Assembly: GCA_002839445.1 (NCBI GenBank)
Contig: PGYB01000022.1
Span: 242-64,241, forward strand
Length of the DNA: 64,000 nt
DNA from: Candidatus Riflebacteria bacterium HGW-Riflebacteria-1
Lineage (GTDB): Bacteria > Muiribacteriota > Ozemobacteria > Ozemobacterales > Ozemobacteraceae
Direction: 5' to 3'
Below, one piece after another: positions 365-61,829 of this stretch (its first letter is position 1; the number at the start of each line of letters is the position of its first letter). A program made the translations under genes and the position numbers. The notes under the pieces were generated by a model. It saw only the letters and a program-made list of their open reading frames with translations, was not told where the DNA came from and ran no database searches.

Positions 365-366
365 TA

Positions 367-7590: not shown

Positions 7591-7608
7591 CACCGTTCTA
7601 ATCCCTGG

Positions 7609-8220: not shown

Positions 8221-8694
8221 GATTTTATTGTTCCTGTCAACAAAGATTATGCTGCATAGCAGCATAACATGACCGGCTGCTGATTGCAATCTTCGACTGC
8301 AGATAGCTCGGGCGTTTGGCAGCGATTGAGCGACTGGCTTTATCTATTGTTGCGGAAGTTTTTAACCTGGCTGGCCCAGGCTTTTCCTGCCATTGACTTA
8401 CTCCCTGCACATTGTCATTTCGTCGGACCGAGCCGGTAGCGCAGGGGAAGATGCAGGCGCGGCCTTCACATTTGAGTTACCGCCCTTCATCGTTACATTG
8501 CAACAGGCTAACGATCACGAGCACGATTCACAAAATTTTGCTTCTTATCTTAGTGCCATTCTGAGGTGTTCCTCTATTCCCCCTCGATTCCACACAAGCT
8601 ACAGTGAATGACTTCTTGAGACTGGTAAGGTATCCTCCGGAATTGGCGGAATCCCAAAGTTGCCTTGCAGAAAATTCTGGCATAAACTGACTGC

Positions 8695-9150
8695 ATGTTA
8701 AAAATAATCAACGTGCATGAGTTCGCCAAAAGTATCGATACAGCGATTGAATACATTCATGGCATCTGGGGAAACTCAAAAAGTTTCGCCTATTACCAGG
8801 ATGCAATACGCCATTCCTTTACCAACAGCCAGTTGCCGCAGTTTTATCTGTTGCTGCACGCAGGCGAACCGGTTGGTTGCGCCGCCCTCATCACCAATGA
8901 TTTTATCAGCCGGCATGACCTTTACCCGTGGGTAGCCTGCCTGTATGTTGCCGAAGAATTCAGGGGAAAAGCCTACGGCAGCCGGTTGCTGACCCATGCA
9001 GTGCAGCAGGCCCGCGCCGCCGGCTTTTCAGCTGCCTACCTGACGACCGACCATGACGGCTATTACGAAAAATACGGCTGGCAGCGCATTGAAGACGGCA
9101 TAGATCTGTTCACCGGCCTGGCTTCACGCATTTACAAAATGAATCTGTGA
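8695..9150 (+). CDS. GNAT-family N-acetyltransferase
   Basis: 151 aa. The acetyl-CoA-binding block LYVAEEFRGKAYGSRLLTHAVQQARAAG is typical of GNAT motif A. Confidence 0.8.
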   Translation: MLKIINVHEFAKSIDTAIEYIHGIWGNSKSFAYYQDAIRHSFTNSQLPQFYLLLHAGEPVGCAALITNDFISRHDLYPWVACLYVAEEFRGKAYGSRLLTHAVQQARAAGFSAAYLTTDHDGYYEKYGWQRIEDGIDLFTGLASRIYKMNL

Positions 9151-9239
9151 ACCTGCCTTCTTTTTCGGGATCGGGATAATGAAGTTTTCCTTCCCCGCCT
9201 GGTTTTTGTGATCTCCTACGGGAATCAGGAAATTAAAAC

Positions 9240-25908: not shown

Positions 25909-28461
25909 TCAGTGGAAAAAGCTTGAACGCAGCTGCTCTGACGAGGCGTCATATACCGAGTTGATGACTTTGCCGGTCGCTTCGTTAATCGCGGTTTTTC
26001 CGAAAGTCGACAGGTAGCGCTCAAGATCGCTCGACGGGCTCTGCGGAATAACATTGCTGGTGATCGCTTTGTTTACTTCGCGGGTATATTCACCGAGAAG
26101 GTTGTTTTTGATCATTTTGGGAATGCTGCTGACGATTTTCTTCATTTCATCGCCAAAGTTGACATAGCCTTCGGGATTATACTTGTATCTGGCCAGGCCG
26201 TTCGCGTAGGCCTCGGCAGTCAGCACACCGACCCAGTTATTGTTATACTGCGTCAGCATCTGCTTTTCGGCGCGCGCCATGATCGCCGGCATCTGGCGTT
26301 CAACTTCATCCCATCTGACATTCTGCGTTTTCAGGTCGTAAACGTATTTTTCGACCAGGGCTGCCTTATATTGCGACGGACTGATTACGTCAGCACGCCC
26401 GGCCAGCAATTTAGCTTCTTCCGGGGAAAGGGCCAGTGTGCCGGCCTTGTGCTGGCGACGCATATCGAGAACCTTTTCGATGTTTTCAGCTTTAGCGCTG
26501 CTGCTGACAAACTTGTCTTCATAAGTCTTTTTGATGGCGAGGGCGGCAAGTTCGTTCATGCGTTCGTCAGAAGCATCGGCGAGATCAGGATTTTTCGACT
26601 GCAGAACTTTTTTCATTGCGGCAAGATGTGCATCACCGCCGCGCAAACGCCCAAGTTCAAGCATCTGGTTCAGCTTAACATCGCGTTCATATTGCACGCT
26701 GATATCTTTTTTCAGGGCAACATTCTGGGGAAGAGCTTCAGCCTTCTGGGCGGTCAATGACTGCTGCAGCCAGGCATCGCGGGCTTTATCAAGTTGCTTG
26801 ACATGCCCGGCAAGAGCCTTGGCATAAGTCGTTGGGTTGCGGTAACGCAGTGGGTTCGGCGTATTCTTTTTTAAATCTTCATATTTCTGCTGCAGGGTGG
26901 CGGCTTTTTTCCAGTTGGGGTCCTGGTCGCGGTAAAGATTTTCGACTGCTGCCTTACGGGCTTTGGGGCCATCGTAAACATTGTATTTAACAGCATCGAC
27001 CGTCAGACGAGCCGCATGCACCGCGAAGCCATTTACCATAGAGTCAAAACCGGCTTTGGTAGCGTCAATCGAATCGCGCTTCTGTTCTTTCTCGGCAATC
27101 ATTTTTTCGTAGTATTCGAAAACCGGCGTTCCTGCGGCGTATGCCTTCTGCTCATTGCGCAGATCTTTAATATCGCCGCTGACGAAAGATTTCTCAAGCG
27201 AGGCGCCAGCCATGCCGCTGCCAAAGTTAACCGGCATGGTAGAAAAAAGGCTAGCTACGCTCTTGCCCTTGGCGACGCTGCCAAACAAGCGCACTGACGC
27301 GCGGTCGGCCCAGCGCCCGAAGGTACTGTTATAAGCACGGTCAGAAATAATCGATCCGGCAAAACCTGAAATTGCCGCCGAAACACCGGCGCGCTTCAGG
27401 TCTTTAATGGCGTCTTCACGGGTGTAATGCTCGCCGCGCATCATTTCGTTTTCGGCGCGCAAGCGGTCAAGTTCAGCAATTGTTTCAGTTGAGAATGGAG
27501 TCTCACTGCTGAGATGAGCGTTGAGAATCTCGTCAATTCTGTTTTCGTTGGCTTCGATTTTTTCGGGATATTTGAAATAATGCACTGACCATAGGTTTTT
27601 AACCGCACCGCCGACCTGGCTCGAAAGAGCGCGACCGGCAAAGGTAATGCCAGCCTGAGTCAGTGCGACCTTGCCGATAGCGCGGCCGACAGTAGGACCA
27701 ACCATGCCAAACATGCCACCGGTTGCCAGATTGAACGGCGCCATCACCGCCTCGATCACGGCCTGAACCGAAACATCGCGCCAGATTTTGGCTTCTTCTT
27801 TTTTAACCGTTCGATATTTTGCGTTCATACGTTTTTCGAACGCATAGGTCATGAGACCGCCGAGCGCAGCGCCAGTTACGATGCCGCCAATAACCATACC
27901 CACCGGGGTAAGCGGTGCCAGTAGTGCCGTTGCAATTATCACGCCCATGGTCGGCAGCAGTGATTTGCCTATTGTCCAGGCGATTCTTTCCCAGAGGGGC
28001 ATTTCGCCGGGATTGCCCGAGGCGCCGAGCAGGCGCTGCGCGTAGCCGACTATTTTTGACTGAAAATTGCGCCAGAGATGCCATTTTTCTTCGGCCACCC
28101 GGGCTTCTTCGGCCGGGTTTCCTTCGGCGGAGGCGATTGTTGACGATTCTGCTGAAACTACCGACTCGTCAGCTGCGCCGGACTGGTCGACTGGCGACTG
28201 TTGCGAAGCCTGCACAGTCGGGACGTTCTGGCCGGTCGCTTCTTTATAAGCCTGCTGGGCTTCGAGATAGACATCGAGCTTGCCGCTGATCTCATCGATT
28301 GAAGCCTGTGACTCTACCGCTTTTACATACTCGGAATAAGCGCGCTGGTAAGTGTCATAAGAACTGGCTGCGGGCGCATTCTGGCTGGCGAACGCAGGCA
28401 CAATACCCTGCACGAGCAGAGTAAAAATAAGCACCCAGGTTAGTAGAAAGTTCTTACGCAT
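25909..28461 (-). CDS. Large exported/membrane hypothetical protein (850 aa) with Gly-zipper TM cluster
   Basis: Signal peptide MRKNFLLTWVLIFTLLVQGIVPAFA. Gly/Ala-rich hydrophobic segments at about residues 160-270 (LLPTMGVIIATALLAPLTPVGMVIGGIVTGAALGGLM...). The long C-terminal part is helical-looking and has no recognised domain. Confidence 0.6.
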   Translation of the reverse strand: MRKNFLLTWVLIFTLLVQGIVPAFASQNAPAASSYDTYQRAYSEYVKAVESQASIDEISGKLDVYLEAQQAYKEATGQNVPTVQASQQSPVDQSGAADESVVSAESSTIASAEGNPAEEARVAEEKWHLWRNFQSKIVGYAQRLLGASGNPGEMPLWERIAWTIGKSLLPTMGVIIATALLAPLTPVGMVIGGIVTGAALGGLMTYAFEKRMNAKYRTVKKEEAKIWRDVSVQAVIEAVMAPFNLATGGMFGMVGPTVGRAIGKVALTQAGITFAGRALSSQVGGAVKNLWSVHYFKYPEKIEANENRIDEILNAHLSSETPFSTETIAELDRLRAENEMMRGEHYTREDAIKDLKRAGVSAAISGFAGSIISDRAYNSTFGRWADRASVRLFGSVAKGKSVASLFSTMPVNFGSGMAGASLEKSFVSGDIKDLRNEQKAYAAGTPVFEYYEKMIAEKEQKRDSIDATKAGFDSMVNGFAVHAARLTVDAVKYNVYDGPKARKAAVENLYRDQDPNWKKAATLQQKYEDLKKNTPNPLRYRNPTTYAKALAGHVKQLDKARDAWLQQSLTAQKAEALPQNVALKKDISVQYERDVKLNQMLELGRLRGGDAHLAAMKKVLQSKNPDLADASDERMNELAALAIKKTYEDKFVSSSAKAENIEKVLDMRRQHKAGTLALSPEEAKLLAGRADVISPSQYKAALVEKYVYDLKTQNVRWDEVERQMPAIMARAEKQMLTQYNNNWVGVLTAEAYANGLARYKYNPEGYVNFGDEMKKIVSSIPKMIKNNLLGEYTREVNKAITSNVIPQSPSSDLERYLSTFGKTAINEATGKVINSVYDASSEQLRSSFFH

Positions 28462-31406: not shown

Positions 31407-31685
31407 ATGAAGAAATTATGCAGAAGCAGGGCAAAGGGGATTCTTTTTGTAATGCTTGTTCTGGGCGGCACAATGCTGACCGGCTGCCTGGACTTTACCG
31501 GCAAGCTTGCCGCTGAGCGCGAGGACCTTCAGAAGAGGCGGAAAATTTTAAGAGATAACTATAAAAAGGTAGCAACAAAATTAGACCATAGAGACCGCAA
31601 CAAGCAGGAACTGATTATGACCGAACTCAGACTTGATTTATTTCGCAGAGCTCAGAAGATGATGCAGGAGGGCAAAAATGAGTAA
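31407..31685 (+). CDS. Small coiled-coil lipoprotein
   Basis: 92 aa. Lipobox LTGC after a hydrophobic leader; the rest is charged and helical. Confidence 0.5.
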   Translation: MKKLCRSRAKGILFVMLVLGGTMLTGCLDFTGKLAAEREDLQKRRKILRDNYKKVATKLDHRDRNKQELIMTELRLDLFRRAQKMMQEGKNE

Positions 31686-31950
31686 AAGAAACCTTCTTGT
31701 CTTAATCATGGCTTTCTCTTCGCTTGCTGTTGGTTGTAATTTTGAGCTTGCCAGCGACATAAAAACAGAGAATCAGAACTTGCAGTTAGAAGTAGCAACG
31801 CTCGAAAAATGGGTGGCGGAGGCCGCGTCGGTTGAGGAAGAAATAGACGAAATCCGTGAGCGGCTTGTGAAAAAGAAAGAAGAGCTTGAAGAGTTTAAAA
31901 AAGAGCACCCGGAAGTCGTTGAATATGCAATAAAGAATAAGCTTGAATAG
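31678..31950 (+). CDS. Small coiled-coil lipoprotein
   Basis: 90 aa. Lipobox AVGC; charged helical remainder. Overlaps the upstream gene by 8 nt. Confidence 0.5.
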   Translation: MSKRNLLVLIMAFSSLAVGCNFELASDIKTENQNLQLEVATLEKWVAEAASVEEEIDEIRERLVKKKEELEEFKKEHPEVVEYAIKNKLE

Positions 31951-32028: not shown

Positions 32029-32103
32029 AGGCTCGTAGCTCAGTTTGGTTAGAGCACCACGTTGACATCGTGGGGGTCAGCGGTTCAAGTCCGCTCGGGC
32101 CTA
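32029..32103 (+). tRNA. tRNA-Val (anticodon GAC)
   Basis: Cloverleaf read by hand. Acceptor AGGCTCG/CGGGCCT; D-arm TAGCTCAGTTTGGTTAGAGC; anticodon stem CCACG/CGTGG with loop TTGACAT; T-arm AGCGGTTCAAGTCCGCT. No encoded CCA. Confidence 0.9.
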
Positions 32104-32134: not shown

Positions 32135-32902
32135 TTGTCTATTACCAGCCCGCTGCTAGATAACATCAGAATTGTTCTGGTCGAACCCCAGGGCGCACTG
32201 AACGTCGGCTCAACCTGCCGCGCCATGAAAAACTTCGGCCTCAGCCACCTCAGCGTGGTGCGACCGGGCTGCCAGCTCAATCTCGACGCCGTCAAAATGG
32301 CGATGCATTCGACCGATATTCTTGAATCAGCAAGAATCATGCAGACTATTCCAGAAGCAATTGAGGGAAGCCTGCTCGTGCTCGGCACCGCCAACCGCCG
32401 CGGCGAGTATCATGAGCCGAACCTGACCGTTCAGGAAGGCATACTCAAAATCAGGCAGGTTCTTGAAAAAGGGCCGGTTTCGATTCTGTTTGGCCGCGAA
32501 GAATGGGGCCTGACCAAAGAAGACCTCGTTCACACCATGGGCACTATGCGCATCGTCACTGACCCCGAATGCACTTCGCTCAATCTCTCGCAGGCAGTAT
32601 TGTTGATAGCTTACGAACTGTATCAGAATTTTGGCAACCCGATGCCGCTGCCCAAAGCCTGCGCCGATGATCCGTATGAGCAGCCGCCGACCACCGAAGA
32701 ACTCGCGCGACTCTATAATCACATTGAAGCCGTATTGAGCATGAGCGAGTTTCTGCCGCTGGCAAACAGTGATGCAGTATTGCAGATTTTGCGGGCTTTT
32801 TTTCACCGCTCGACCCCCACCCTGCGCGAAGTCAGTCTGCTGATGGGCATTTTTTCAAACCTGCGCGGCTTCATGCGCAAATACGTAAAGAACCCAAAGT
32901 AG
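32135..32902 (+). CDS. trmJ: SpoU/TrmH-family RNA 2'-O-methyltransferase (TrmJ-like)
   Basis: 255 aa, TTG start. IRIVLVEPQGALNVGSTCRAMKNFG, ILFGREEWGLT and LNLSQAVLLIAYEL are the three SPOUT motifs. Confidence 0.8.
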   Translation: MSITSPLLDNIRIVLVEPQGALNVGSTCRAMKNFGLSHLSVVRPGCQLNLDAVKMAMHSTDILESARIMQTIPEAIEGSLLVLGTANRRGEYHEPNLTVQEGILKIRQVLEKGPVSILFGREEWGLTKEDLVHTMGTMRIVTDPECTSLNLSQAVLLIAYELYQNFGNPMPLPKACADDPYEQPPTTEELARLYNHIEAVLSMSEFLPLANSDAVLQILRAFFHRSTPTLREVSLLMGIFSNLRGFMRKYVKNPK

Positions 32903-33087
32903 TCCTTCTCGCATGCCGTCAGCGCCGCGACAACCGGATTGTCCAGGAGCGAGGCCTTGAAATATGCTTCAAATCTTGCAGGTCTTGCCTGGCTTTTTAA
33001 AAGACTTTCGAGTTGTTCTTTGTGTCTTAGAGGCTTAGTGCGCACTTTTTTTCTCTTGCCTCGAACCTCTCACAGCCAAGATATTTT

Positions 33088-36000
33088 TTGACGGATTGTG
33101 GTAAATTGTCAGGCAACTGGCTGAAATTAATCACATCGGGGCGCAAAAGAGTGCTGGTAATTACTTCTAATCAGAGACAGACCGGTTTCGTCTGGGTTCT
33201 GCTGCTCGCCATTCTTTTGCTTACCCCGCTGGCCGGGCTCAATCACCTGCTTGATCAACTGCGCGCCAAAGACGAGAATTATCTCGACATGCAGGCGCGC
33301 GAGCGTCTGCTCAATGAAATGACTGCCTTTCAGGAAAGCTTGCAGGCCGAGAAACATATCTTGACTGCACTTGATCACATGCGCGATCATTTTGGCATAA
33401 ACATCGACAACGACAATTTTCGCAATCTTAGCTTTTCTTACGCAAGCGACCCGATGCTTATTCAAAGCGGCTTTCCGGCAAGCGCCAGCGAATTTCTCAG
33501 ACAAAATTATCACATTAACCCGCTGCTGGCCTACGCGGTCGACTGCGACATGCAAAATTTCTATTCATACTATTCACGCGAGATTTTCAGAGACGAAAAG
33601 CTGCGACGTGACTTTGAATATGCCACGGCCCACTGGATGGTATTTTCGCAACACGATGTTGTCAACGAACTGCCAGACACTCCTGACATGCAGACAATCA
33701 ATGACTCTTACAGACTGCGAAATGGCGCGGGCTATGAAAATGCGCAGCAAAGATTCCGCGAACTCTTTCAGCTCTACATCTCTGCCTTCGGTACCCCGCC
33801 CATCTCAAACGGCATCTGTCGGCCATTCTTTTCCAACCGATTCGGCAGCCAGCGATCGTTTCAGCTGATACATCAGATTTCGCGGCCAAAAGGCCTGAGA
33901 GTAAGCATGCTCGGTTGCTATTATTTTGTCTTCAACAGCAGCGACATTTCCCCGACGGCGGTATTGAAAAAGGCGATGAACAATATCGACCCCGCGATCA
34001 ACAGATATGTCGTCAGCAAAGAGGTAGAGCAGCCAGAGTTTGTCTATGGCAGCGAACACCTGCTTTACTACTCGGTTTTTCCATCGCATTACTCCACGCA
34101 TATCGAAGACTATGCCATCAATAACCCGAAGACCAGCAGCCTGCTTCGCGACTTTGTTGGCAGGCGTGGGCTCTGCGTCAGAATCGATAACAAGCTTCTG
34201 ATTTCACGCTACGTGCTGGCTGGAAAAGTCTGCAGCGCGTTAGCCAGGGCGGCGTTGCTGCTGTTTTTTGCCTTGCTGGTCAGATCTTACATGCAGGATA
34301 TTGAATATGGTCTGCGGCTGGCTAAAAAACTACGGGTTGCCGTCGCAATAATTGTGATGCTGCCAGTCATCGGTGTATTTCTGGTCAGTCGGGAATATGA
34401 AGCAGATAATGAGAAGCTGAGCCTGATCAAGTGCCAGACAAAAATCAGACGGCAACTTGATTTTCTCGGCAAACTGATTGGCGATTCCGACGCAAGAACT
34501 ATGCTGATGCTGCAGGAAAGCAAAGAAAAGCTCGCCTTGCGTCATTACCGACTCGAAAACAAAGACCTTACTGAGCTTACCAGAAAAGGTGACTTTTACG
34601 GACTTACCGCTGGAGCCCTCGAAGGGTCACTAACCAGAGATGGTGCGCAGATAATGGCTACGCAAAGAAAACTCCGTGAGAATTCGTCGATTCGCACCGG
34701 TCTTTATCAGATACTTTTAGATCTCGGCGCAATCAACGCAGAAGCGCCAGAAATAAAGAAGATACACCGACAACACACCATATTTATTGGGCTCGCCGGA
34801 GCTCTTACCAACCTGTTCAGCGAACCCGAATCACTCGCCCGCGAAGGTCTTTTGACCAAACACATTCTGTCGGCTTCGGCCCTGTTACGATCTGTACATC
34901 ATTTCATCGTCCACCCGCTTCGCCCAACTGTTATCGACGCGATTGTACTGCTGGTAATAGATGATATCAATATCATGAAGAAGATGTATGCGCAGATGTC
35001 ACAGGAGTCTTTGCACCTGTTCAGCGAATACGACGAAAACAGCCAGATTGATTACGCGCTGGCCCTGCGCAGCCCCACATCATTACGCACTTACCAGGCG
35101 CCAAATTTTTCGTCTCCTTCCAACCGAATGACAAATCTGGCGGCGGCCGCGGTTAACAACAAAACTTCTGGCTCTATAACCAGACGTGTTGGAGGTCAAT
35201 TAAAAATCGACAGCTGGACAATCTCTGACCTGAATCCGGTAATCATTTTGGCCAGAGCCACTCTTAACCATAACCCTTCGACCCATCTGCTGTTCGTTAT
35301 CATTCCGTGGGCGCTGCTTGTTTACGCTATTCTGGCAGTGACCCTTATATCTGACGTTCTCGCGGACATTTTTCTGGCACCGGTAAGGGCCCTGCTCACT
35401 TTTGTCAGCAGACTGCGACAAAACGACCTGCAGGTCAGAGTCATTATTCCCTCTGGGGGCGAGTTTGAAGAGCTTGGTATTTCGTTCAACCAGATGAGCG
35501 AAGGTCTCAGGCAGCGGGAAAAGATGCGGCGTTTTGTTTCTGACAAACTGGTATCAAGCCTTGAATCGCAGGGCGAATCACAGCAACCGACCCGTGCGGC
35601 GCTCAGCGTATTGAGTTCGGATATTCGCGGTTTTACCGCCTTGAGCGAACAGTACCCGCCAGAAGAGATAGTAAGTCTGCTCAACGACTATTTTTCATGC
35701 ATGGAAGAGGCATTGCAGCAGCATGGCGGTTCGATAGAAAAGATCGTCGGCGATGCGGTAATGGCAGCTTTTTACCGTGATGACCAGCAGGAATGCCATG
35801 CAGCAAGAGCCTGCAAAGCCGCGAGAGAAATGAAGGCCAGACTGGCAACATTTAACCGGCAACGCGAAGAAAACAACAGGTTCACGATCAGAACCGGAAT
35901 CGGAATCGCCAGTGGCGAAGCTGTGCTCGGCTTTGCCGCCGGAGGCTCAGGCCGGCGCGAGTTTGTTCTCATCGGCGAAGTAACCCACCGCGCTGAAGCG

Positions 36001-36144
36001 CTTGAAGCACAGACGAGATGGGCAAAAAATAGCGGTATATTCGTTGACAGCGCCACCGCAGCCATGTTGAACGAAGAATTCGCAGAGGTATGCATCGACA
36101 ATGGCGACAGCCAGATAAAATGTCTGGAGCTGAAGCATGTCTGA
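33088..36144 (+). CDS. Four-TM double-sensor HAMP / class III nucleotidyl cyclase, C1-like (metal-binding half)
   Basis: 1018 aa. HAMP region (APVRALLTFVSRLRQNDL...EFEELGISFNQM) followed by a cyclase domain (LSSDIRGFTAL, EKIVGDAVMAAF, IRTGIGIASGEAVLG, EFVLIGEVTHRAEALE). The start codon is uncertain. Confidence 0.85.
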   Translation: MTDCGKLSGNWLKLITSGRKRVLVITSNQRQTGFVWVLLLAILLLTPLAGLNHLLDQLRAKDENYLDMQARERLLNEMTAFQESLQAEKHILTALDHMRDHFGINIDNDNFRNLSFSYASDPMLIQSGFPASASEFLRQNYHINPLLAYAVDCDMQNFYSYYSREIFRDEKLRRDFEYATAHWMVFSQHDVVNELPDTPDMQTINDSYRLRNGAGYENAQQRFRELFQLYISAFGTPPISNGICRPFFSNRFGSQRSFQLIHQISRPKGLRVSMLGCYYFVFNSSDISPTAVLKKAMNNIDPAINRYVVSKEVEQPEFVYGSEHLLYYSVFPSHYSTHIEDYAINNPKTSSLLRDFVGRRGLCVRIDNKLLISRYVLAGKVCSALARAALLLFFALLVRSYMQDIEYGLRLAKKLRVAVAIIVMLPVIGVFLVSREYEADNEKLSLIKCQTKIRRQLDFLGKLIGDSDARTMLMLQESKEKLALRHYRLENKDLTELTRKGDFYGLTAGALEGSLTRDGAQIMATQRKLRENSSIRTGLYQILLDLGAINAEAPEIKKIHRQHTIFIGLAGALTNLFSEPESLAREGLLTKHILSASALLRSVHHFIVHPLRPTVIDAIVLLVIDDINIMKKMYAQMSQESLHLFSEYDENSQIDYALALRSPTSLRTYQAPNFSSPSNRMTNLAAAAVNNKTSGSITRRVGGQLKIDSWTISDLNPVIILARATLNHNPSTHLLFVIIPWALLVYAILAVTLISDVLADIFLAPVRALLTFVSRLRQNDLQVRVIIPSGGEFEELGISFNQMSEGLRQREKMRRFVSDKLVSSLESQGESQQPTRAALSVLSSDIRGFTALSEQYPPEEIVSLLNDYFSCMEEALQQHGGSIEKIVGDAVMAAFYRDDQQECHAARACKAAREMKARLATFNRQREENNRFTIRTGIGIASGEAVLGFAAGGSGRREFVLIGEVTHRAEALEAQTRWAKNSGIFVDSATAAMLNEEFAEVCIDNGDSQIKCLELKHV

Positions 36145-38992
36145 ACAGCTACAGATAATAACCAGCAGCAACAGGTCGCATACAGTAAGGCTTTTCGCCA
36201 TCTGGCTTTTTCTCATCGTCATGCCGGCGCTGGTGCTGGTTATCTCTTTCGACATGTTGCTCAAAGACAGCGAAGGCTATATCAAAGACACCCTGAAAAT
36301 CAAAATGGTGCAGGAACTTGGCGATTTCCGCAGCAAACTGAGCTTTGCCAGAATGGTCGAGCTGAAAATGCACCGACTCACCAGCAAAACCAGACTGCTG
36401 GATTCTGATGCCGAAAGCCTCGCCAGAACGATCAATCAGCAACTGCAGATACCCGCGGTCATTGTGTTTCATCTCAACCCGCAAACCGGAAAATTTTCGA
36501 GCCATGTCGCTGATTCAATCAGCGCAAGGCTAGGCATGCTGTCGCGAACCATGCTGCAAAACTATCTGACGAGTGTGCTCAGAAACAGCAAGACTCCTTC
36601 CAGGAGCGGTAGCGCCGAAAACCCCGCCGAGGCTGCGAAATACAAAAGAAGCCTCGCCTATCTTCGCAGTCTTTTCAGCACCGCCGGCGAAATAGAAATT
36701 ATGTTCAATCGGGCAACACCCTCTTTTTCTGGTCACCCCGAGCTTGGCCGCCTGCTTTTCTACGCTGTTCCGCTGGAGAATAGCGGCGCCGCCCTGCTGG
36801 TTTTCAGAGAAAACGATATTTCGCTACGCCAGCTCGCTGAGTTTGCCGCCAATGACCGGCTTTTCACAGATCTGCAGCGAAGCTTTACCCTTTCAGCAGA
36901 GGGGAGACAGGCTGTTTACCGACTCGGCAATGAAATGCAGCATTTCAGCGAAGCGGGCGATGGAGCGCTGGTAGTTAAGGGGATGGCCTCGGAAGAGTTC
37001 CTGCTTCGCCGGGTTAACAACGGCACACTCTTCCCGGCCAGATTAAAAGAAACCCTTGCCAACCCGCCCCTGCTGCAAATTACCGCTCCCCTGCCCTCAC
37101 AACAGCACCCACTGAGAAAAGTAACTTCACAGGCTGAAAAAGCGGCTTTACTGCTGGTCATTCTCGCATCGGTGCTGCTGCTGCGCATATTTCTGTTTGG
37201 TTACAGCAGCGGCCTGAAAATTCGCACTCGTCTGCTGCTCTGCGTGCTCGGCGCCTCGATTCTGCCATTCTCGACATTTATCGCCAGCATGGCTTACCAC
37301 GAACACTTTGTCGCAGAATTTGAGAAATCCGAGATCGATCAATACCTCAATCTGCAGCAGGACTACCTGAACAAATCGCTTAATGCCCGTATTGATGTCG
37401 AAGAGCGTAAAATGGCTGAACTTGCCGAGACACTCGGCCGACTCAACTGGCAGGAATCAGACAAATATCTCAGTGACTGGAAAAAGAAAAGTGTTTCAGT
37501 GCTGCTGCTCATCAGCTCTGGCGATCAAGAAAAGATTTACACAGACAGTCCTGATGAAACCCTTAACGCAACCGAAATCAGCATGAAGAATCTTAGTTTC
37601 ATGACGCTGAGAAGTGCGCTCAGGCCAATCGAAGAGAGCCCGCAAGGTGAAATAAAAGATACTGGAACTCTCGGGATCGGTGTCAGGGGACTCGGCATCG
37701 TTCTCGAAAATGTCGGCAAACTGCAGGAAACACTTTCTGACAATGCTGTAACCCTGTTTTCCTCGTTTCCGGTCTTTGCCGAAAACCGACGTTTCGACGC
37801 GCCCACGTCGCTTGTGCTGGTCAAATACTACACTGCAGACCTGATATATGATTTTCTTAAAACACATCCTGAGTTCACCAGGTCAGAAATCAGGGGAAAA
37901 TACCGCATTCAAAGCTGTTTTATTCCGATCAAACACGCTTTCAGACTGCCACCTGACCATGAAGCTATTTACAGCCAGGGCTTCTCACCCTCCAGATGGT
38001 CGCAGCTGGCACGCCATGTTCTACACAGCAGATCGACCTCATCGTGGTCTGACGAAGAATCAACAGCGGTAGCGAGTTTTCACAACCGTCTGCAATGCAT
38101 CATCATCAACACATCACAGAGAATCAGCAACACCGATTCAGGAGTCGGAGACGTTTTTCTGCCAGCGTTGCTGTATTTTCTGCTGATGGTTGCCGCCATG
38201 GTCATATTCATGGCAAAAATACTGATAGAGCCGATCGACATGCTTAAACGCGGCGCCGAACTGGTTGCCGCCGGCAATTATCAGCACCGGCTTGAATACA
38301 ATTCTGGTGATGAATTTGAACCCCTGACAAGCTCTTTTAACGAGATGACAGCCGGCCTCTACCAGCGCGAACTTCTCACCAGCTATGTCTCACAGGACGT
38401 TCTCAGCGAAGTCAGCAGCAGCATGACGCTTGTTCCTGGAGGCGAGCGTGTCGAGGCCAGCGTTGTCTTCTGCGCGCTGAAAGGGTTTAAAGAATTCAGC
38501 CAGAGCTCAAGTCCTGAACAGACAGTAAAAGTTCTCGGCCGACTCATCGAAGTTGCTGATCAGGTCGCCAACCAGCACGGCGGCGGCATGGACAAGCTGA
38601 TTGAAGACACGGTCATGCTGGTATTCAGACAACGCGGCAACGATAATGACCATGTAATCTCTGCCTGCCGGGCAGCGCTGGCGATCAGTCAGAGCCTGCC
38701 CGACGCCGCCGCCCCTTTCAACGTTGCCATCGGCATCGCCTCGGGAGCGGCAGTCTCGGGTAAAATCGGTTCAAAAACCGGCAAGCTTGATTTCACGCTG
38801 ATTGGCAACCCGGTCAATCTGGCGGCACGCCTCAAAGCGCAGGCGCATAAAGCTGTTAACACCGGCGTTATTGCCTGCCCGGCCACAATCAGGCTGCTTA
38901 AAGGCCAGGGGCGGCTGCTCTTTATTGAACGTACAGAAATAAAGGGAAGGTCGCGGACCTTCCCTCTCTATGAACTTGTTGAACTGCGCTAA
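36137..38992 (+). CDS. Four-TM double-sensor HAMP / class III nucleotidyl cyclase, C2-like (substrate/transition-state half)
   Basis: 951 aa. HAMP region (EPIDMLKRGAELVAAGNY...EFEPLTSSFNEM) followed by a cyclase domain (VVFCALKGFKEF, DKLIEDTVMLVF, VAIGIASGAAVSG, DFTLIGNPVNLAARLKA). The ATG overlaps the upstream stop by 8 nt. Confidence 0.85.
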   Translation: MSEQLQIITSSNRSHTVRLFAIWLFLIVMPALVLVISFDMLLKDSEGYIKDTLKIKMVQELGDFRSKLSFARMVELKMHRLTSKTRLLDSDAESLARTINQQLQIPAVIVFHLNPQTGKFSSHVADSISARLGMLSRTMLQNYLTSVLRNSKTPSRSGSAENPAEAAKYKRSLAYLRSLFSTAGEIEIMFNRATPSFSGHPELGRLLFYAVPLENSGAALLVFRENDISLRQLAEFAANDRLFTDLQRSFTLSAEGRQAVYRLGNEMQHFSEAGDGALVVKGMASEEFLLRRVNNGTLFPARLKETLANPPLLQITAPLPSQQHPLRKVTSQAEKAALLLVILASVLLLRIFLFGYSSGLKIRTRLLLCVLGASILPFSTFIASMAYHEHFVAEFEKSEIDQYLNLQQDYLNKSLNARIDVEERKMAELAETLGRLNWQESDKYLSDWKKKSVSVLLLISSGDQEKIYTDSPDETLNATEISMKNLSFMTLRSALRPIEESPQGEIKDTGTLGIGVRGLGIVLENVGKLQETLSDNAVTLFSSFPVFAENRRFDAPTSLVLVKYYTADLIYDFLKTHPEFTRSEIRGKYRIQSCFIPIKHAFRLPPDHEAIYSQGFSPSRWSQLARHVLHSRSTSSWSDEESTAVASFHNRLQCIIINTSQRISNTDSGVGDVFLPALLYFLLMVAAMVIFMAKILIEPIDMLKRGAELVAAGNYQHRLEYNSGDEFEPLTSSFNEMTAGLYQRELLTSYVSQDVLSEVSSSMTLVPGGERVEASVVFCALKGFKEFSQSSSPEQTVKVLGRLIEVADQVANQHGGGMDKLIEDTVMLVFRQRGNDNDHVISACRAALAISQSLPDAAAPFNVAIGIASGAAVSGKIGSKTGKLDFTLIGNPVNLAARLKAQAHKAVNTGVIACPATIRLLKGQGRLLFIERTEIKGRSRTFPLYELVELR

Positions 38993-39009: not shown

Positions 39010-39984
39010 TTACCAGCCAAGAATATACGCAAAAATCAGCGGAGCCACGATAGTGGCGTCTGATTCAACGATAAATTTTGGCGTATTGATATCGAGCTTG
39101 CCCCAGGTGATCTTTTCGTTGGGAACCGCGCCAGAATACGATCCATAACTGGTAGTCGAGTCAGAAATCTGGCAGAAATAGCTCCAGAATGGAATTTTTT
39201 CCATTTCGAGATCCTGATACAGCATCGGCACGACGCAGATCGGGAAGTCGCCGGCGATACCGCCGCCAATCTGGAAAAAGCCAACGCCCTTGCCAGTCGA
39301 GTTCTTGATGTACCAGTCAGCCAGCCACATCATGTATTCGATGCCGGATTTCATGGTAGAAGGTTTGAGATCACCCTTGATGCAATATGAAGCAAAAATG
39401 TTGCCCATTGTTGAGTCTTCCCAGCCGGGCACTATGATCGGCAGATTCTTCTGGGCTGCGGCGATCATCCAGCTGTTCTTCGGGTCAATCTCATAATACT
39501 GTTCAAGCACGCCAGAGAGAAGCATCTTGTACATGTATTCGTGCGGCAGATAGCGCTCGCCCTTGGTGTCGGCATCTTTCCATATCTTGAAGATATGAGC
39601 CTGCAGGCGCCTGAACGCTTCTTCTTCGGGAATACAGGTATCAGTAACCCGGTTGAGACCCTTTTCAAGGAGATCCCATTCGTCTTTCGGGGTAAGGTCG
39701 CGATAGTTTGGAACCCGTCGATAATGATTGTGTGCGACGAGGTTCATGATATCTTCTTCGAGGTTAGCACCGGTACAGGAGATAATGGCGATCTTGTCCT
39801 GGCGTATCATCTCGGCAAGCGACTTGCCAAGCTCGGCCGTACTCATGGCTCCCGCCAGCGTTACCATCATTTTTCCACCCTCTTTAAGATGCAGGCAGTA
39901 GCCCTTGGCTGCGTCAACAAGTGCGGCAGAGTTAAAGTGCAGGTAGTGTTCTTCGATGAACGATGTAATGGGGCTCTTAGTCAT
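39010..39984 (-). CDS. Deoxyhypusine synthase-family protein
   Basis: 324 aa. MVTLAGAMSTAELG...ISCTGANLEEDI...IVPGWEDSTMGN...GGGIAGDF...DATIVAPL are colinear with DHS/homospermidine-synthase-like enzymes. Confidence 0.8.
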   Translation of the reverse strand: MTKSPITSFIEEHYLHFNSAALVDAAKGYCLHLKEGGKMMVTLAGAMSTAELGKSLAEMIRQDKIAIISCTGANLEEDIMNLVAHNHYRRVPNYRDLTPKDEWDLLEKGLNRVTDTCIPEEEAFRRLQAHIFKIWKDADTKGERYLPHEYMYKMLLSGVLEQYYEIDPKNSWMIAAAQKNLPIIVPGWEDSTMGNIFASYCIKGDLKPSTMKSGIEYMMWLADWYIKNSTGKGVGFFQIGGGIAGDFPICVVPMLYQDLEMEKIPFWSYFCQISDSTTSYGSYSGAVPNEKITWGKLDINTPKFIVESDATIVAPLIFAYILGW

Positions 39985-58244: not shown

Positions 58245-61200
58245 TTGTGGTATGATGTGCATACCATGGGTAAGGCATCTCTTTTAACACCCGTTTACTT
58301 TTTCAGCTCGATCAGAGCTGGTTCTGGCAAGAGTTCAATGCTTGCCAATCTTGCAGTTTTCCTGAACAATATTAATCAGAAAATTGCAATTGTTGATCTC
58401 GACGCCGAAACTCCACTGAAGCTCAAAAACACTTTTCCACGCTCCATCAGCCTTCAGGAATACAGCGACATTTCACTGATCTCACAAAATCACGATTCGC
58501 GATATCAGAAGAATTTTTATTTTACTGAGACCAGCCTGATTTCATATTTTCCTGCGCATCAGCTCAAAGACGCTTCAATGCTGTTCAGCGACACAACTTT
58601 GCGCGATTTCTTCATTCAGATAACTGCCTGCTTTGATACGGTCATGGTTAACTTCCCGTCAGGAGCCTCGCACTGTCAGAAATCCTCTGATCTGCTCGCG
58701 CGAACTCATCTCTGGCGCGGCAAAAGTCCCGTTGCCATAATAGTGTCGCAGGCTGACGAAAAAAGCCTGGTAACCCTGGATTCGCTTATTCATGAGAACC
58801 CTGCCTTCTTTTATCAGCTGCAGGAAAACACACTTCTGCTGTTCAACCGTGTGCCGACTTCAGTAGAAGATCAAAAACTTTCAGAGAACACGCTCAACAG
58901 CCTCGAACTGCGCAGCCTGTTTAATTTTCCGGCAACTTACGTGGTGGGCATCAGCGAAGAGTTTCCTCATCAACGCCAGATTGCAGCGCCGCAGGTTCTC
59001 AACAAAGACTCGGTCATACACCAGACTATAGCGAGTTTTAATCGACTGCTTACCAGCACAGCAAGAAGTTTGAGCCGCGCAACATATGATCTGACCTCTG
59101 ATTATCAGGCCTGTCTCGACGGGCAGCTACTCGAAAAGCTTTCGCCGTATCTCGAAAAAATTCAGGCTCTGGCCGCGCAAAAGCTTTTTCAGCACCCCTC
59201 AGACGTTCAGGTATTTCTTGAAGAGAGCGAAGGCAATTACCGGATCAGAATCAGATTGACCGGCGTAAAACAGCCACTATCCGGCATTCAGCGCGTAATC
59301 GACCTTAACATTAACCGTCAGATTAAAGACCGCCTCTCGCCCGCGATCTGGCAATTCAGGCGCAATTTCGACCTGCCGGCAACAGCAGATATTTACCAGA
59401 AACCAGACAAGCCTGCTCTGGCTGTTAAGCCAATATACCGCTTTGACGATCGCTTTGCCGGTTCGCTCGACTTCAGACTGCGATGCGAGTTTGACTTCAG
59501 ACCCGAACGTGGCCGCTACCCGTCTCCGATTTTTTTCAAGGCCGCCCTTGAAATGCCCGAAATACCTTCACTATCAGAAGTTCTTGGGTACTCGCGCAAA
59601 CAATTCAAAAAGTGTGGTTTTGCAGCTTGTTCGCACCTTTACGCGATATCCGGGGTGACACACTTTTTCATACCTCCAGAATTTGATCTGTCAACCATTT
59701 ATAGCTGCGTTTTTCAGCAGATGTATAGCAGTGATCTCAAAATTTACACCCGCCAGACCTTGCGGCACGTCAAAGAATTTGTTCCGGCTTATCCAATGCC
59801 TGAATGCGTTTTAAGCATGCATGCAGAACTGCCCGATGAATTCGCCCGCACTAAGCAACTGCGCCCCGAAAGAGATTTTCTGGCACGAGTAAAGACTGTT
59901 ATTAAAGAAAATCTTGTAAAAGTCGCCAACGCCGCAGCCAGATTTCGACACAGCGAGCCTCTACTGGCATGCGGAGAGTATCTCGATCAGACTGGCGACC
60001 CCCCGTCGCTAAGTCGACTGACGATTCCGCCCATAATCAGGCTCAGCGCGTCGTCAAAGATTTCCCTTCCCGAGATCAGGGCCCGAACCAACGACCCGGC
60101 AAATCGTGCGTGGCGCGATAATTTTGTTCTTAGAAATATACTCGATGATATCTGCAAAGCCAATGAAACAGCGCTTTACAGCCTTAAACTGCTGAATTCA
60201 GGCATCGATAGCCGGGCAGCGCAGCTTGTCGGGATTTCATTCGCCCAGAAACAGAGCGAATACAGGTCAAATATTCTTACCAAGGCAATTCCAGATAGTC
60301 CGACGACATTTATTTGCGACTATATCACGCCGCTCACCGATAAATACGAGCCTTTACGTGAGCTCAATCTGCCCAGAGCGTTTAAATACGCTGATGTGAT
60401 GATAGACCATTACTTCGCGCCCGTGGTTTACCGACTTTCTCATAGAAACCAGATATCCGAAGAAAAAAGTTCGCGAATATACAATTTCAGTCACCCGGCA
60501 TTTTTTAAGCAAACCTATGCTGAACGTTCTGTCGAAAAGGCTAAATCAGATATCACGCTGCCGCGGCAGGCCACTGCGCACAGATTCGCGGCAGAGGGTT
60601 ACGACTACCACAACCTGGCCTACCGATCCCTGCGCGGAAAGCCAACCATGGCGCACCAGATACTGCCGGTTGCTTATACACAGGCTACAATCGGGGACTA
60701 TCGCGACATCGGCAATGCCAAGGCCACGCGAACAGACCATCTGATCGACGCGAGGGCGAACTCGCTCAAATTCCCGCCGCATAAAGGCAAAATTATTGAG
60801 ATAAGGGTTTTACTGAGCCGACCGCCGTCATTGAGCCATTTGCGGGCTGAGCGGCCAGTTTTCGCTGAAATTTCAGCCCAGTCGACAAAATATGTATACA
60901 GACACCTGTCAGGCAAGAAAGTGCCTGACAAATTTTCAGCTGCCGTGTCTCCTCATCTTCTGCAGATTATTAAAGAACTCGGCACAACAGGCGGACTGCC
61001 GTTTACCCCGTTCTACAGTTTTAATCCCGCTTTTACTCCGCCAACCATCCCGGCTTTTGTAATTGCAGATCCCGAGCTTTACACTATGCCGGTGCGATCA
61101 GGCAGTCGACAGATATGGCATTCTGTCAGCAATGAAATCTCCGACCGGATTGATATTGAAACCATGATAGAAACAAGCAAGTTTGCGCATCAAACAGTCT

Positions 61201-61829
61201 ATTCTGAAAAATTTGTGGAACCTGAATTCTTTTGCAAGCTGCCTGAGCACATCGCATGCGCTCTACGGGCGAGAAATATCGAACTACCACAGTCTCTTGA
61301 TTTTGGCGATTATCAGCGAATCAAAGAGGTTCTCGACCACGAAAGCACAATCTTTTTCTCTGCCGACAAGCGTTTTACCGCAAATTACGATACTTGCAAA
61401 CTCACTGCCAAACCGACTTATCGCCAACCTGCTCTGGCAAAGCAGTCACTACCGAAGGCAGCGGCAAAAATCTGGAAGCAGCTTAAACAACCCAGAAAGC
61501 AGTTCTGGGTTGTTTTTCCTGATAAAATCGCAACGCTTTACCAGCACCTTCTCTGGAGTATCTCTGCCAGACGTCAGCAAACGTCATTGTTCTCAGACTC
61601 TTTTCTCAAAAAAAGCGACGGCACGGCAAAAGCGTTTACCAATAGCGCAGCAGCTGAGACGCCAGACAACCCATTTTGTGACAAGGGATTCATGCCCGCC
61701 ACCAAGCTTTCGCAAAACTTTTTACGCACCAGCATAAAAGTAAAAAAATTGAGTCTCAAAGATATTATGAGTCTCGCCCGCCAGGCCAGTGAAAAATTCA
61801 GCCAGGTCAACAGTCAGCTCCGCGCATGA
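58245..61829 (+). CDS. Giant protein: divergent ParA/MinD-like ATPase domain plus ~900 aa of unknown function
   Basis: 1194-codon ORF (TTG 58245; first in-frame ATG 58266). The N-terminal ~270 aa carry SSIRAGSGKSSMLANLAVFL (Walker A-like), IAIVDLD and DTVMVNFPSG (Walker B-like strand). The rest has no motif I recognise and no obvious TM segment. Confidence 0.65.
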   Translation: MWYDVHTMGKASLLTPVYFFSSIRAGSGKSSMLANLAVFLNNINQKIAIVDLDAETPLKLKNTFPRSISLQEYSDISLISQNHDSRYQKNFYFTETSLISYFPAHQLKDASMLFSDTTLRDFFIQITACFDTVMVNFPSGASHCQKSSDLLARTHLWRGKSPVAIIVSQADEKSLVTLDSLIHENPAFFYQLQENTLLLFNRVPTSVEDQKLSENTLNSLELRSLFNFPATYVVGISEEFPHQRQIAAPQVLNKDSVIHQTIASFNRLLTSTARSLSRATYDLTSDYQACLDGQLLEKLSPYLEKIQALAAQKLFQHPSDVQVFLEESEGNYRIRIRLTGVKQPLSGIQRVIDLNINRQIKDRLSPAIWQFRRNFDLPATADIYQKPDKPALAVKPIYRFDDRFAGSLDFRLRCEFDFRPERGRYPSPIFFKAALEMPEIPSLSEVLGYSRKQFKKCGFAACSHLYAISGVTHFFIPPEFDLSTIYSCVFQQMYSSDLKIYTRQTLRHVKEFVPAYPMPECVLSMHAELPDEFARTKQLRPERDFLARVKTVIKENLVKVANAAARFRHSEPLLACGEYLDQTGDPPSLSRLTIPPIIRLSASSKISLPEIRARTNDPANRAWRDNFVLRNILDDICKANETALYSLKLLNSGIDSRAAQLVGISFAQKQSEYRSNILTKAIPDSPTTFICDYITPLTDKYEPLRELNLPRAFKYADVMIDHYFAPVVYRLSHRNQISEEKSSRIYNFSHPAFFKQTYAERSVEKAKSDITLPRQATAHRFAAEGYDYHNLAYRSLRGKPTMAHQILPVAYTQATIGDYRDIGNAKATRTDHLIDARANSLKFPPHKGKIIEIRVLLSRPPSLSHLRAERPVFAEISAQSTKYVYRHLSGKKVPDKFSAAVSPHLLQIIKELGTTGGLPFTPFYSFNPAFTPPTIPAFVIADPELYTMPVRSGSRQIWHSVSNEISDRIDIETMIETSKFAHQTVYSEKFVEPEFFCKLPEHIACALRARNIELPQSLDFGDYQRIKEVLDHESTIFFSADKRFTANYDTCKLTAKPTYRQPALAKQSLPKAAAKIWKQLKQPRKQFWVVFPDKIATLYQHLLWSISARRQQTSLFSDSFLKKSDGTAKAFTNSAAAETPDNPFCDKGFMPATKLSQNFLRTSIKVKKLSLKDIMSLARQASEKFSQVNSQLRA

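What the first reader, a model, noticed from the sequence alone, without database searches (positions are those of the whole stretch)
33088..38992. Translationally coupled cyclase pair with reciprocally degenerate active-site residues (obligate heterodimer?)
The two genes overlap by 8 nt (ATG 36137; upstream stop 36142-36144) and encode paralogous HAMP + class III cyclase proteins. I mapped the six canonical catalytic positions by eye.

Protein 1:
- keeps both metal-binding Asp (SSDIRGFT, VGDAVM) and the Lys (EKIVGD);
- has Val, His and Ala where the substrate Asp/Thr, the transition-state Asn and the Arg should be (FVLIGEVTHRAEAL).

Protein 2:
- has Ala instead of the first metal Asp (FCALKGFK);
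- keeps Lys (DKLIED), Thr, Asn and Arg (FTLIGNPVNLAARL).

In class III cyclases the active site forms at the dimer interface: the Asp pair comes from one chain and the Lys/Asp(Thr)/Asn/Arg from the other. Neither homodimer would therefore be complete. A 1:2 heterodimer would have exactly one catalytic site plus one degenerate, potentially regulatory pocket. This is the mammalian C1/C2 solution, encoded here as two separate bacterial receptor-type polypeptides.
Basis: partly seen in the sequence, partly recalled or inferred. Interest (0 to 1): 0.7.

Follow-up and report, generated by a model that had tools for sequence, protein, structure and literature searches.

The report
Two-gene heterodimeric bacterial adenylyl cyclase receptor
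Two overlapping genes of a Riflebacteria genome encode membrane sensor-cyclases that each lack a different half of the catalytic residues, so they should only make cyclic AMP as a mixed pair; this mammalian-style design is conserved in every related pair examined and is even fused into one chain in some relatives, although bacterial class III cyclases are usually described as homodimers.

Summary
ORF1 (33088/33151-36144) and ORF2 (36137-38992) overlap by 8 nt. Both are 4-TM, double-loop sensor + HAMP + class III cyclase proteins.

Formal alignments to solved cyclases give:
- P1 = D-K-D-V-H-A: metal Asp pair kept; substrate Thr/Asp, Asn and Arg lost.
- P2 = A-K-D-T-N-R: first metal Asp lost; Lys, Thr, Asn and Arg kept.

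The pattern is systematic. In 30 related pairs, almost all from Rifleibacteriota MAGs:
- The C1-like partner always keeps both Asp.
- The C2-like partner always keeps K/T/N/R.
- The complementary positions are degenerate or hypervariable.
- 28 of 29 two-gene pairs have overlapping stop and start codons.

C1-like and C2-like domains form separate groups with mirrored sub-trees covering at least 6 paralogous pair lineages.

Three relatives (L028, L040, P0172) are single-chain fusions of both halves. This is Rosetta-stone evidence that the halves interact.

The best explanation is an obligate C1/C2-type heterodimer with one active site (predicted adenylyl cyclase, Lys/Thr) and one degenerate pocket.

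The mechanism is known from eukaryotic mAC and sGC. I found no description of a two-gene or fused receptor-type version in bacteria. I rate it a new variant of a known kind.

The parts
33151..36144 (+). P1, the C1-like subunit gene. The ORF is open from TTG 33088 (1018 aa); the probable true start is GTG 33151 (997 aa). Architecture: 4 TM, two ~300-aa extracytoplasmic loops, HAMP, class III cyclase domain.
35362..35514 (+). HAMP domain of P1 (residues 759-809 in 1018-aa numbering)
   Evidence: Pfam PF00672, 28.5 bits against a cut-off of 25
35599..36087 (+). Cyclase domain of P1. It keeps the metal Asp pair (D845 at 35620, D889 at 35752) and Lys (K885 at 35740). It has V960 (35965), H967 (35986) and A971 (35998) in place of Thr/Asp, Asn and Arg. 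It lacks the C-terminal '(I/V)KG(K/R)' strand (Pfam match covers profile positions 8-162 of 183).
36126..36144 (+). Coupling junction: GGAG (36126-36129), P2 ATG (36137-36139), P1 TGA (36142-36144); 8-nt overlap.
36137..38992 (+). P2, the C2-like subunit gene (951 aa). Same 4-TM / two-loop / HAMP / cyclase architecture as P1. The sensor half is barely alignable with that of P1.
38207..38359 (+). HAMP domain of P2 (residues 691-741)
   Evidence: Pfam PF00672, 35.9 bits
38453..38950 (+). Cyclase domain of P2. A780 (38474) replaces metal Asp 1. It keeps K820 (38594), D824 (38606), T887 (38795), N894 (38816), R898 (38828) and the C-terminal IKGRS strand.

Best explanation
P1 and P2 are the two subunits of an obligate heterodimeric, membrane-bound class III nucleotidyl cyclase.

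Production: they are probably made in near-equal amounts from one transcript by translational coupling (8-nt stop/start overlap with an internal GGAG).

Assembly: the subunits would pair in parallel through their TM, HAMP and linker helices. The head-to-tail cyclase dimer would then have a single complete catalytic site.
- P1 (C1-like) supplies the two metal-binding Asp (D845, D889) and the phosphate-loop motif SDIRGFT.
- P2 (C2-like) supplies the base-selecting Lys/Thr (K820, T887), the transition-state Asn/Arg (N894, R898) and the C-terminal KG(R) strand.
- The pseudo-symmetric second site (P2 A780/D824 + P1 K885/V960/H967/A971) cannot catalyse. It is a degenerate pocket, possibly regulatory.

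Product: the Lys/Thr pair predicts ATP as substrate, so cAMP as product (class IIIb-like).

Input: each subunit carries two large extracytoplasmic loops that look dCache-like. Their sequences differ strongly between P1 and P2, so the receptor is also asymmetric on the sensing side.

Shown here: gene structure, domain content, residue assignment, conservation, co-diversification, fusions.

Inferred: physical dimer, coupling, activity, product, ligand.
For: 1. Residue assignment rests on formal alignment to solved cyclases. Codons were verified.

2. Orthologues (40-74% identity) keep the pattern. P1 family: D-K-D-[V/I]-[H/Q]-[A/K/T/S/L/H/Q]. P2 family: [A/S/R]-K-D-T-N-R.

3. Thirty pairs were taken from a genome-contig scan plus contig look-ups.
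- C1-like: Asp1 30/30, Asp2 30/30. The Sub, Asn and Arg positions carry 10, 11 and 13 different states (a gap counted as a state at Sub).
- C2-like: Lys, Thr, Asn and Arg 30/30 each. Asp1 is never Asp; Asp2 is Asp in only 14/30.
- Unpaired HAMP-cyclases of other phyla found in the same scan are nearly all canonical DKDTNR.

4. Of 114 representatives (50% identity clusters, out of 1.84 billion proteins) that carry this sensor module together with a cyclase domain, none has a complete residue set: 115 domains, 105 C2-like and 10 C1-like.

5. Adjacency is universal. Gene order is C1->C2 in 18 pairs and C2->C1 in 12. In 28 of 29 two-gene pairs the stop and start codons overlap by 1-17 nt.

6. In an NJ tree all C1-like domains form one clade. 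C2-like domains group apart from them (paraphyletic under the midpoint root). The sub-clades mirror each other across at least 6 pair lineages, which indicates co-diversification of partners.

7. There are natural single-chain fusions.
- L028 (Ca. Ozemobacter sibiricus, 2215 aa) and L040 (2305 aa) are only ~39% identical yet collinear. Both read sensor-HAMP-C1-like, linker, sensor-HAMP-C2-like.
- P0172 (2111 aa) is fused in the opposite order.
- Sources.

8. Literature: the Rv1625c point mutants D300A and R376A are each inactive but complement each other in a heterodimer (PMC4821796).
Against: - No direct test was possible.
- P2 keeps the second metal Asp and P1 keeps Lys, so the 'dead' site is only partly degenerate in this lineage.
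- A few C1-like relatives still have Thr and Asn and lack only Arg (DKDTNE/Q/A). Degeneration is graded, and some homodimer activity cannot be excluded for those.
- Genomes carry several paralogous pairs, so partner exchange between pairs is conceivable.
- Translational coupling is inferred from overlap alone.
Confidence: 0.8

Rival explanations
1. Both proteins are catalytically dead pseudo-cyclases. They would act as sensors or scaffolds (for example nucleotide-binding receptors) and make no cyclic nucleotide in any combination.
For: Neither chain has a full catalytic set. Degenerate cyclase-like domains with non-catalytic roles exist in other families (general knowledge).
Against: Dead domains would not keep exactly complementary residue sets invariant across 30 pairs while only the non-contributing positions drift. 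Together the two chains provide all six canonical residues.
Confidence: 0.06
2. Each protein works as a homodimer with non-canonical chemistry. Examples would be P2 using one metal Asp, or P1 using His/other residues in place of Asn/Arg. On this view the pairing reflects only duplication and co-regulation.
For: Some characterised bacterial cyclases tolerate unusual substrate-defining residues (my recollection of Rv1900c and Rv0386; not checked here). P2 keeps Asp2 and P1 keeps Lys.
Against: Single substitutions of a metal Asp or the transition-state Arg inactivate Rv1625c homodimers (PMC4821796). In C1-like subunits the Arg position takes 13 different residues and the Asn position 11. In C2-like subunits Asp1 takes 8 different residues. 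That is drift, not an alternative conserved chemistry. The fusions argue for a physical C1/C2 unit.
Confidence: 0.05
3. The proteins are heterodimeric, but partners are promiscuous. C1-like and C2-like subunits from the several paralogous pairs in one genome would mix combinatorially, so the encoded neighbour is not the exclusive partner.
For: Several MAGs carry two or more pairs: DAOQWI L011/L015, DAOPYA L008/L017, R. amylolyticum L003/L024, GCA_018818125 L001-2/L005.
Against: Mirrored C1/C2 sub-trees, conserved stop/start overlap and the fusions all indicate dedicated cognate partners.
Confidence: 0.09

Closest known systems
Mammalian membrane adenylyl cyclases (class IIIa pseudo-heterodimers, TM1-C1-TM2-C2)
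   Same: - Division of labour: the C1-type domain gives the two metal Asp; the C2-type domain gives Lys, the base-specifying residue, Asn and Arg.
- One active site plus one degenerate pseudo-symmetric pocket.
- The fused relatives (L028, L040) even repeat the order membrane module - C1 - membrane module - C2.
   Different: - In the window the two halves are separate, overlapping genes.
- The membrane modules are 4 TM with two ~300-aa extracytoplasmic loops plus a HAMP domain, not 6-TM bundles.
- The substrate residue is Thr (IIIb-like), not Asp.
- The origin looks independent: in the NJ tree the Riflebacteria C1-like clade lies next to canonical bacterial HAMP-cyclases. No eukaryotic sequences were included in that tree.
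Soluble guanylyl cyclase alpha/beta
   Same: Two separate polypeptides forming an obligate catalytic heterodimer with one active site and one degenerate site. sGC chains appear among the sequence and fold hits.
   Different: sGC is eukaryotic, soluble and GTP-specific, with H-NOX/PAS/coiled-coil sensor parts. Here the proteins are membrane receptors with HAMP, and the residues predict ATP.
Mycobacterial Rv1625c and HAMP-linked bacterial class III cyclases
   Same: Bacterial membrane anchor (+/- HAMP) followed by one cyclase domain per chain, with catalysis at the dimer interface. Engineered Rv1625c D300A + R376A heterodimers reproduce the complementation proposed here (PMC4821796).
   Different: The natural enzymes are homodimers with all six residues and two active sites. 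Reviews state that bacterial class III ACs homodimerise and that a fused dimeric species is unknown in bacteria (PMC9552081; PMC4821796).
sAC-like tandem-domain cyclases of Chloroflexota
   Same: One chain carries a C1-like (D-K-D-x-x-x) domain and a C2-like or canonical second cyclase domain (L057-L085). Intramolecular pseudo-heterodimers therefore do occur in bacteria.
   Different: These are soluble, with N-terminal tandem domains followed by a long C-terminal region. They have no membrane sensor and no HAMP, and they are unrelated to the pair lineage here.

Membership tests
Class III nucleotidyl cyclase (Pfam PF00211 Guanylate_cyc) | Catalytic-domain profile match above the curated threshold | tested here: met
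   P1 59.3 bits and P2 58.1 bits against a cut-off of 21.9. Solved cyclases were hit at E = 1e-23 to 1e-15. The P2 model superposes on CyaB 3r5g with TM(target) 0.82.
Class III nucleotidyl cyclase (canonical homodimeric bacterial type) | All six catalytic residues (2 Asp, Lys, Asp/Thr, Asn, Arg) present in one chain | tested here: not met
   P1 = DKDVHA and P2 = AKDTNR. The full set is present only across the pair.
C1/C2-type heterodimeric class III cyclase (functional kind: mAC, sGC) | Reciprocal degeneracy: one chain keeps the metal Asp pair, the other keeps Lys + base residue + Asn + Arg | tested here: met
   Met in the window pair and in 30/30 related pairs.
C1/C2-type heterodimeric class III cyclase (functional kind: mAC, sGC) | Physical heterodimer, with activity only in the mixed dimer | not testable with these tools
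Indirect support comes from the fusions, the overlap and co-diversification.
Mammalian-type membrane AC (class IIIa) | Single polypeptide with 2 x 6 TM and an Asp as the adenine-specifying residue | tested here: not met
   Two genes, 4 TM each with large loops plus HAMP. Thr is at the specifying position. Relatives L028, L040 and P0172 are single-chain but have the same 4-TM/HAMP modules.
Class IIIb adenylyl cyclases | Lys + Thr as the substrate-defining pair | tested here: met
   P2 K820/T887 align with the Lys/Thr of OaPAC. Thr is invariant in 30/30 C2-like subunits. Bicarbonate responsiveness was not testable.
dCache-type extracytoplasmic sensor domains | Long N-terminal helix followed by two PAS-like alpha/beta modules; profile or fold match | tested here: inconclusive
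   No Pfam hit in the sensor halves. In the AF2 model (pLDDT 71-76) each loop has the helix + beta-sheet pattern. Foldseek gives only weak matches to dCache ligand-binding domains (Mlp24, TlpA, McpB models): E 3e-5 to 2e-2, TM(target) <= 0.47.

The most novel reading that the evidence does not exclude
Rifleibacteriota independently evolved the mammalian solution for adenylyl cyclases, and it can be seen at every stage:
- canonical homodimeric HAMP-cyclases;
- overlapping two-gene C1/C2 heterodimers, diversified into at least 6 co-evolving pair lineages;
- single-chain sensor-C1-sensor-C2 fusions in both orders.

On this reading the degenerate second site is a regulatory ligand pocket analogous to the forskolin site of mACs and the pseudo-site of sGC. 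The two non-identical double-loop sensors would let one enzyme integrate two different extracellular signals.
Probability: 0.35. Interest if true: 0.8.

Novelty: new variant of a known kind. Interest (0 to 1): 0.66.

Why it matters
Reviews of the field state that bacterial class III cyclases are homodimers, that heterodimeric or pseudo-heterodimeric cyclases are a eukaryotic feature, and that no fused dimeric class III AC is known in bacteria (PMC9552081, PMC4821796, PMC8815786).

This lineage offers three things:
- A natural bacterial counter-example.
- A living series from two-gene heterodimer to single-chain fusion, which makes the proposed route to mammalian mACs (duplication, sub-functionalisation, fusion) testable in a simpler system.
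- Asymmetric receptor-cyclases with one active site and one spare pocket. These could clarify why asymmetry is advantageous and could serve as scaffolds for engineered two-input cAMP sensors.

It also warns annotators that 'inactive-looking' cyclase genes should be read together with their neighbours.

Tried and rejected
- Hetero- versus homodimer modelling. A two-chain input with ':' was rejected as not a protein. No dimer model exists.
- Foldseek on the full-length P2 model returned only cyclase-domain hits. A second model of residues 1-700 gave only weak dCache-like matches.
- NCBIfam gave only sub-threshold HAMP-region hits to histidine kinases, with no informative family.
- The promoter/terminator consensus scan was not informative for the operon boundaries. 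The one exception is a terminator-like hairpin after the upstream SpoU gene.
- Seven literature searches found no description of a bacterial two-gene heterodimeric class III cyclase or of Riflebacteria cyclases. The body text of the 2004 actinobacterial survey is not held. The non-open reviews (Linder & Schultz 2003; Bassler et al. 2018) could not be read, so earlier speculation about heterodimerising degenerate bacterial cyclases cannot be excluded.
- No other cyclase gene lies in the window (local HMM over six-frame ORFs). A third partner encoded nearby is therefore rejected.
Full report
**1. What is in the sequence**

The window holds two long same-strand ORFs, 33088..36144 (1018 aa from a TTG) and 36137..38992 (951 aa). 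I call their products P1 and P2.
- The ATG of the second ORF (36137-36139) lies inside the end of the first, whose TGA is at 36142-36144. This is an 8-nt overlap.
- A GGAG sits at 36126-36129, 7 nt before the ATG.
- Orthologues are 996-1000 aa and begin at the residues equivalent to GTG 33151. P1 therefore probably starts there and is 997 aa long. Residue numbers below use the 1018-aa frame.
- Both products match Pfam HAMP and Guanylate_cyc above the curated cut-offs, and nothing else.
- A hydropathy scan gives the same topology for both: TM1, a ~320-aa loop, a TM2-TM3 hairpin, a ~290-aa loop, TM4, HAMP, cyclase.
- The sensor halves of P1 and P2 are barely alignable with each other: 27% identity over the TM2-TM3 region only.
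- No other cyclase gene is in the window.

**2. Catalytic residues**

phmmer alignments against solved class III cyclases (OaPAC 5x4t/4yus, Cya2 2w01 and others) place the six canonical positions unambiguously.
- P1: SS**D**IRGF (metal Asp 1), E**K**IVG**D** (Lys, metal Asp 2). Then EF**V**LIGEVT**H**RAE**A**, where OaPAC has DY**T**ILGDAV**N**VAA**R**.
- P2: FC**A**LKGF, where the first metal Asp should be. Then D**K**LIE**D**, F**T**LIGNPV**N**LAA**R**.
- The codons were verified directly.
- P1 also lacks the last beta-strand with the '(I/V)KG(K/R)' motif, which P2 retains.

**3. Is it systematic?**

Homologues with full-length coverage come only from Riflebacteria / Rifleibacteriota MAGs, for example Ca. 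Rifleibacterium amylolyticum.
- Twelve P1-type proteins show D-K-D-[V/I]-[H/Q]-[A/K/T/S/L/H/Q]; one of them is truncated before the last three positions.
- Eleven P2-type orthologues show [A/S/R]-K-D-T-N-R.
- Contig look-ups show the same gene pair, the same 8-nt overlap and the same neighbourhood in divergent MAGs. The neighbourhood is HD protein, two small ORFs, SpoU methylase | pair | convergent deoxyhypusine-synthase-like gene, ABC transporter.
- More distant pairs appear in L004 and L006.
- One MAG has a second, paralogous pair in which the C2-like gene comes first (L005).

A scan of one genome per GTDB species, using a profile of the C1-like HAMP+cyclase part, returned 80 loci. I searched their six-frame ORFs with a local cyclase HMM and read off the six positions. 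Over 30 non-redundant pairs:
- C1-like subunits have Asp1 30/30, Asp2 30/30, and Lys 20 / Arg 10. Their Thr, Asn and Arg positions carry 10, 11 and 13 different states (a gap counted as a state at the Thr position).
- C2-like subunits have Lys, Thr, Asn and Arg 30/30 each. They never have Asp at metal position 1, and have Asp at position 2 in only 14/30.
- Gene order is C1->C2 in 18 pairs and C2->C1 in 12.

In contrast, the unpaired HAMP-cyclases of other phyla picked up by the same scan are nearly all DKDTNR.

In 28 of 29 two-gene pairs the downstream start overlaps the upstream stop by 1-17 nt.

A profile of the P2-type sensor half, searched against 1.84 billion representative proteins, found only 153 proteins. 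Almost all are ~930-1000 aa or fragments. Of the 150 listed hits, 114 carry a cyclase domain (115 domains): 105 are C2-like, 10 are C1-like and none is canonical.

**4. Evolutionary structure**

I built an NJ tree of the cyclase domains.
- All Riflebacteria C1-like domains fall in one clade. All C2-like domains group separately (paraphyletic under the midpoint root).
- The two groups have mirrored sub-clades, giving at least six pair lineages.
- This fits one ancient duplication with sub-functionalisation, followed by duplication of whole pairs and co-evolution of partners.
- It is a distance tree without support values, so this is indicative only.

**5. Natural fusions**

- In Ca. Ozemobacter sibiricus (L028) a single 2215-aa ORF reads sensor-HAMP-C1-like (DRDSGA), Ala/Pro-rich linker, TM, sensor-HAMP-C2-like (GKETNR). 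Pfam finds two HAMP and two Guanylate_cyc stretches in it.
- A second Ozemobacteraceae MAG (L040) has a collinear 2305-aa protein that is only ~39% identical. The fusion is therefore old and not an assembly artefact.
- Representative P0172 (2111 aa) is fused in the opposite order, C2-like then C1-like.
- In the tree the fused halves cluster with the unfused pairs L029 and L034.

Gene fusion of two proteins that are separate elsewhere is classic evidence that they act as one complex.

**6. Mechanism proposed**

In class III cyclases the active site lies at the dimer interface. The two metal-binding Asp come from one chain. The Lys, the base-specifying Asp/Thr, and the transition-state Asn and Arg come from the other. 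This is established for mammalian C1/C2 and for Rv1625c, whose D300A and R376A mutants are each inactive but complement each other (PMC4821796).

Consequences for the pair:
- A P1:P2 heterodimer has exactly one complete site: P1 D845/D889 + P2 K820/T887/N894/R898.
- It also has one incomplete site: P2 A780/D824 + P1 K885/V960/H967/A971.
- P1:P1 would lack Thr/Asn/Arg in both sites. P2:P2 would lack a metal ligand in both.
- Lys/Thr predicts ATP as substrate and cAMP as product.
- The stop/start overlap with an internal GGAG suggests coupled, near-stoichiometric synthesis.

On the input side, AlphaFold2 models of P2 (mean pLDDT 75.7 full length; 70.8 for residues 1-700) show each extracytoplasmic loop as a long helix followed by alpha/beta modules. 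Foldseek gives only weak similarity to dCache ligand-binding domains of chemoreceptors. I call the loops 'dCache-like, tentative'. The ligands are unknown.

What is inferred rather than shown: the physical dimer, coupling, activity, product, and any role of the spare pocket.

**7. Rivals**

- *Dead pseudo-enzymes.* This does not explain invariant complementary residues combined with drift at the non-contributing positions.
- *Active homodimers with odd chemistry.* This is contradicted by the hypervariability of the replaced positions and by the mutant data on Rv1625c.
- *Promiscuous mixing among paralogous pairs.* This remains possible as a refinement, but it is disfavoured by the mirrored trees, the overlap and the fusions.

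**8. Comparison with the known**

Functionally this is the C1/C2 principle of mammalian membrane ACs and of sGC alpha/beta. It is not a member of class IIIa mACs: it has 4-TM + HAMP modules, Thr rather than Asp, and two genes.

Reviews state the following:
- Homodimerisation is 'a fundamental difference' from eukaryotic enzymes (PMC4821796).
- Heterodimeric class III cyclases are a feature of higher eukaryotes (PMC8815786).

Seven full-text searches found no bacterial two-gene heterodimeric class III cyclase and nothing on Riflebacteria cyclases.

Caveats:
- Several key reviews are not open access and could not be read.
- I recall, unverified, that degenerate bacterial cyclases have been speculated to heterodimerise, and that sAC-like tandem-domain cyclases exist in Chloroflexus.
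- Tandem C1-like/C2-like soluble cyclases did turn up in Chloroflexota loci here.

**9. Verdict**

The mechanism is of a known kind. The bacterial, receptor-type, two-gene form, its fused derivatives and its lineage-wide expansion appear to be undescribed. I rate it a new variant of a known kind, with interest about 0.66 and confidence in the heterodimer model about 0.8.

Noticed in passing
L028:2589-9236; L040:~2430-9347; protein P0172: Single-chain fusions of a C1-like and a C2-like sensor-HAMP-cyclase (2215, 2305 and 2111 aa). L028 and L040 are only ~39% identical but collinear. P0172 is fused in the reverse order. They contradict the published statement that no fused dimeric class III AC is known in bacteria.
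   Followed up: partly
window 33088-33153: The P1 ORF is open from TTG 33088, but orthologues align from the residue encoded by GTG 33151 (997 aa, preceded by GGGG at about -14). The annotated or longest start is probably 21 codons too long.
   Followed up: partly
L057, L061, L063, L067, L068, L070, L072, L073, L075-L077, L079, L085: Chloroflexota and related MAGs encode ~1200-1340-aa soluble proteins with two N-terminal tandem cyclase domains. The first is C1-like (DKD + degenerate); the second is C2-like or canonical. These are an sAC-like intramolecular pseudo-heterodimer unrelated to the Riflebacteria pairs.
   Followed up: no
L051:874-5891 (bacterium UBP17_UBA6191); L080:1672-8765 (Chloroflexia): Adjacent cyclase genes outside named Riflebacteria. 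L051 is a C2-like -> C1-like overlapping pair of the same type; UBP17 is unplaced in NCBI taxonomy. L080 has a canonical cyclase next to a C2-like one with a different architecture.
   Followed up: no
window 38941-38967 (- strand): A 12-bp G+C-rich hairpin followed by a T-rich tail lies inside the 3' end of P2 (the codons for the conserved KGRSRTFPL). It points the right way to terminate the convergent deoxyhypusine-synthase-like gene (39010-39984, -), which ends only 17 nt from the P2 stop.
   Followed up: no
window 31407-31685 and 31678-31950: Two small ORFs (92 and 90 aa; hydrophobic N-terminus with Cys, then coiled-coil-like sequence) also overlap by 8 nt. They are conserved in the same position upstream of the pair in L001-L003. 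Only sub-threshold coiled-coil Pfam hits were found. Function unknown.
   Followed up: partly
window 32029-32103; 32135-32902; 32979-32991: A tRNA-Val (GAC) and a SpoU-family methyltransferase lie directly upstream. A short terminator-like hairpin with a T-run after SpoU suggests the cyclase pair is its own transcription unit.
   Followed up: no
window 25909-28461 (-) and 58245-61829 (+): Two large ORFs (850 and 1194 aa) have no significant Pfam domain. The second has only a sub-threshold ParA/CbiA P-loop hit.
   Followed up: no
window 1-8000: G+C content is lower (0.42-0.47) than in the rest of the window (about 0.49-0.56).
   Followed up: no
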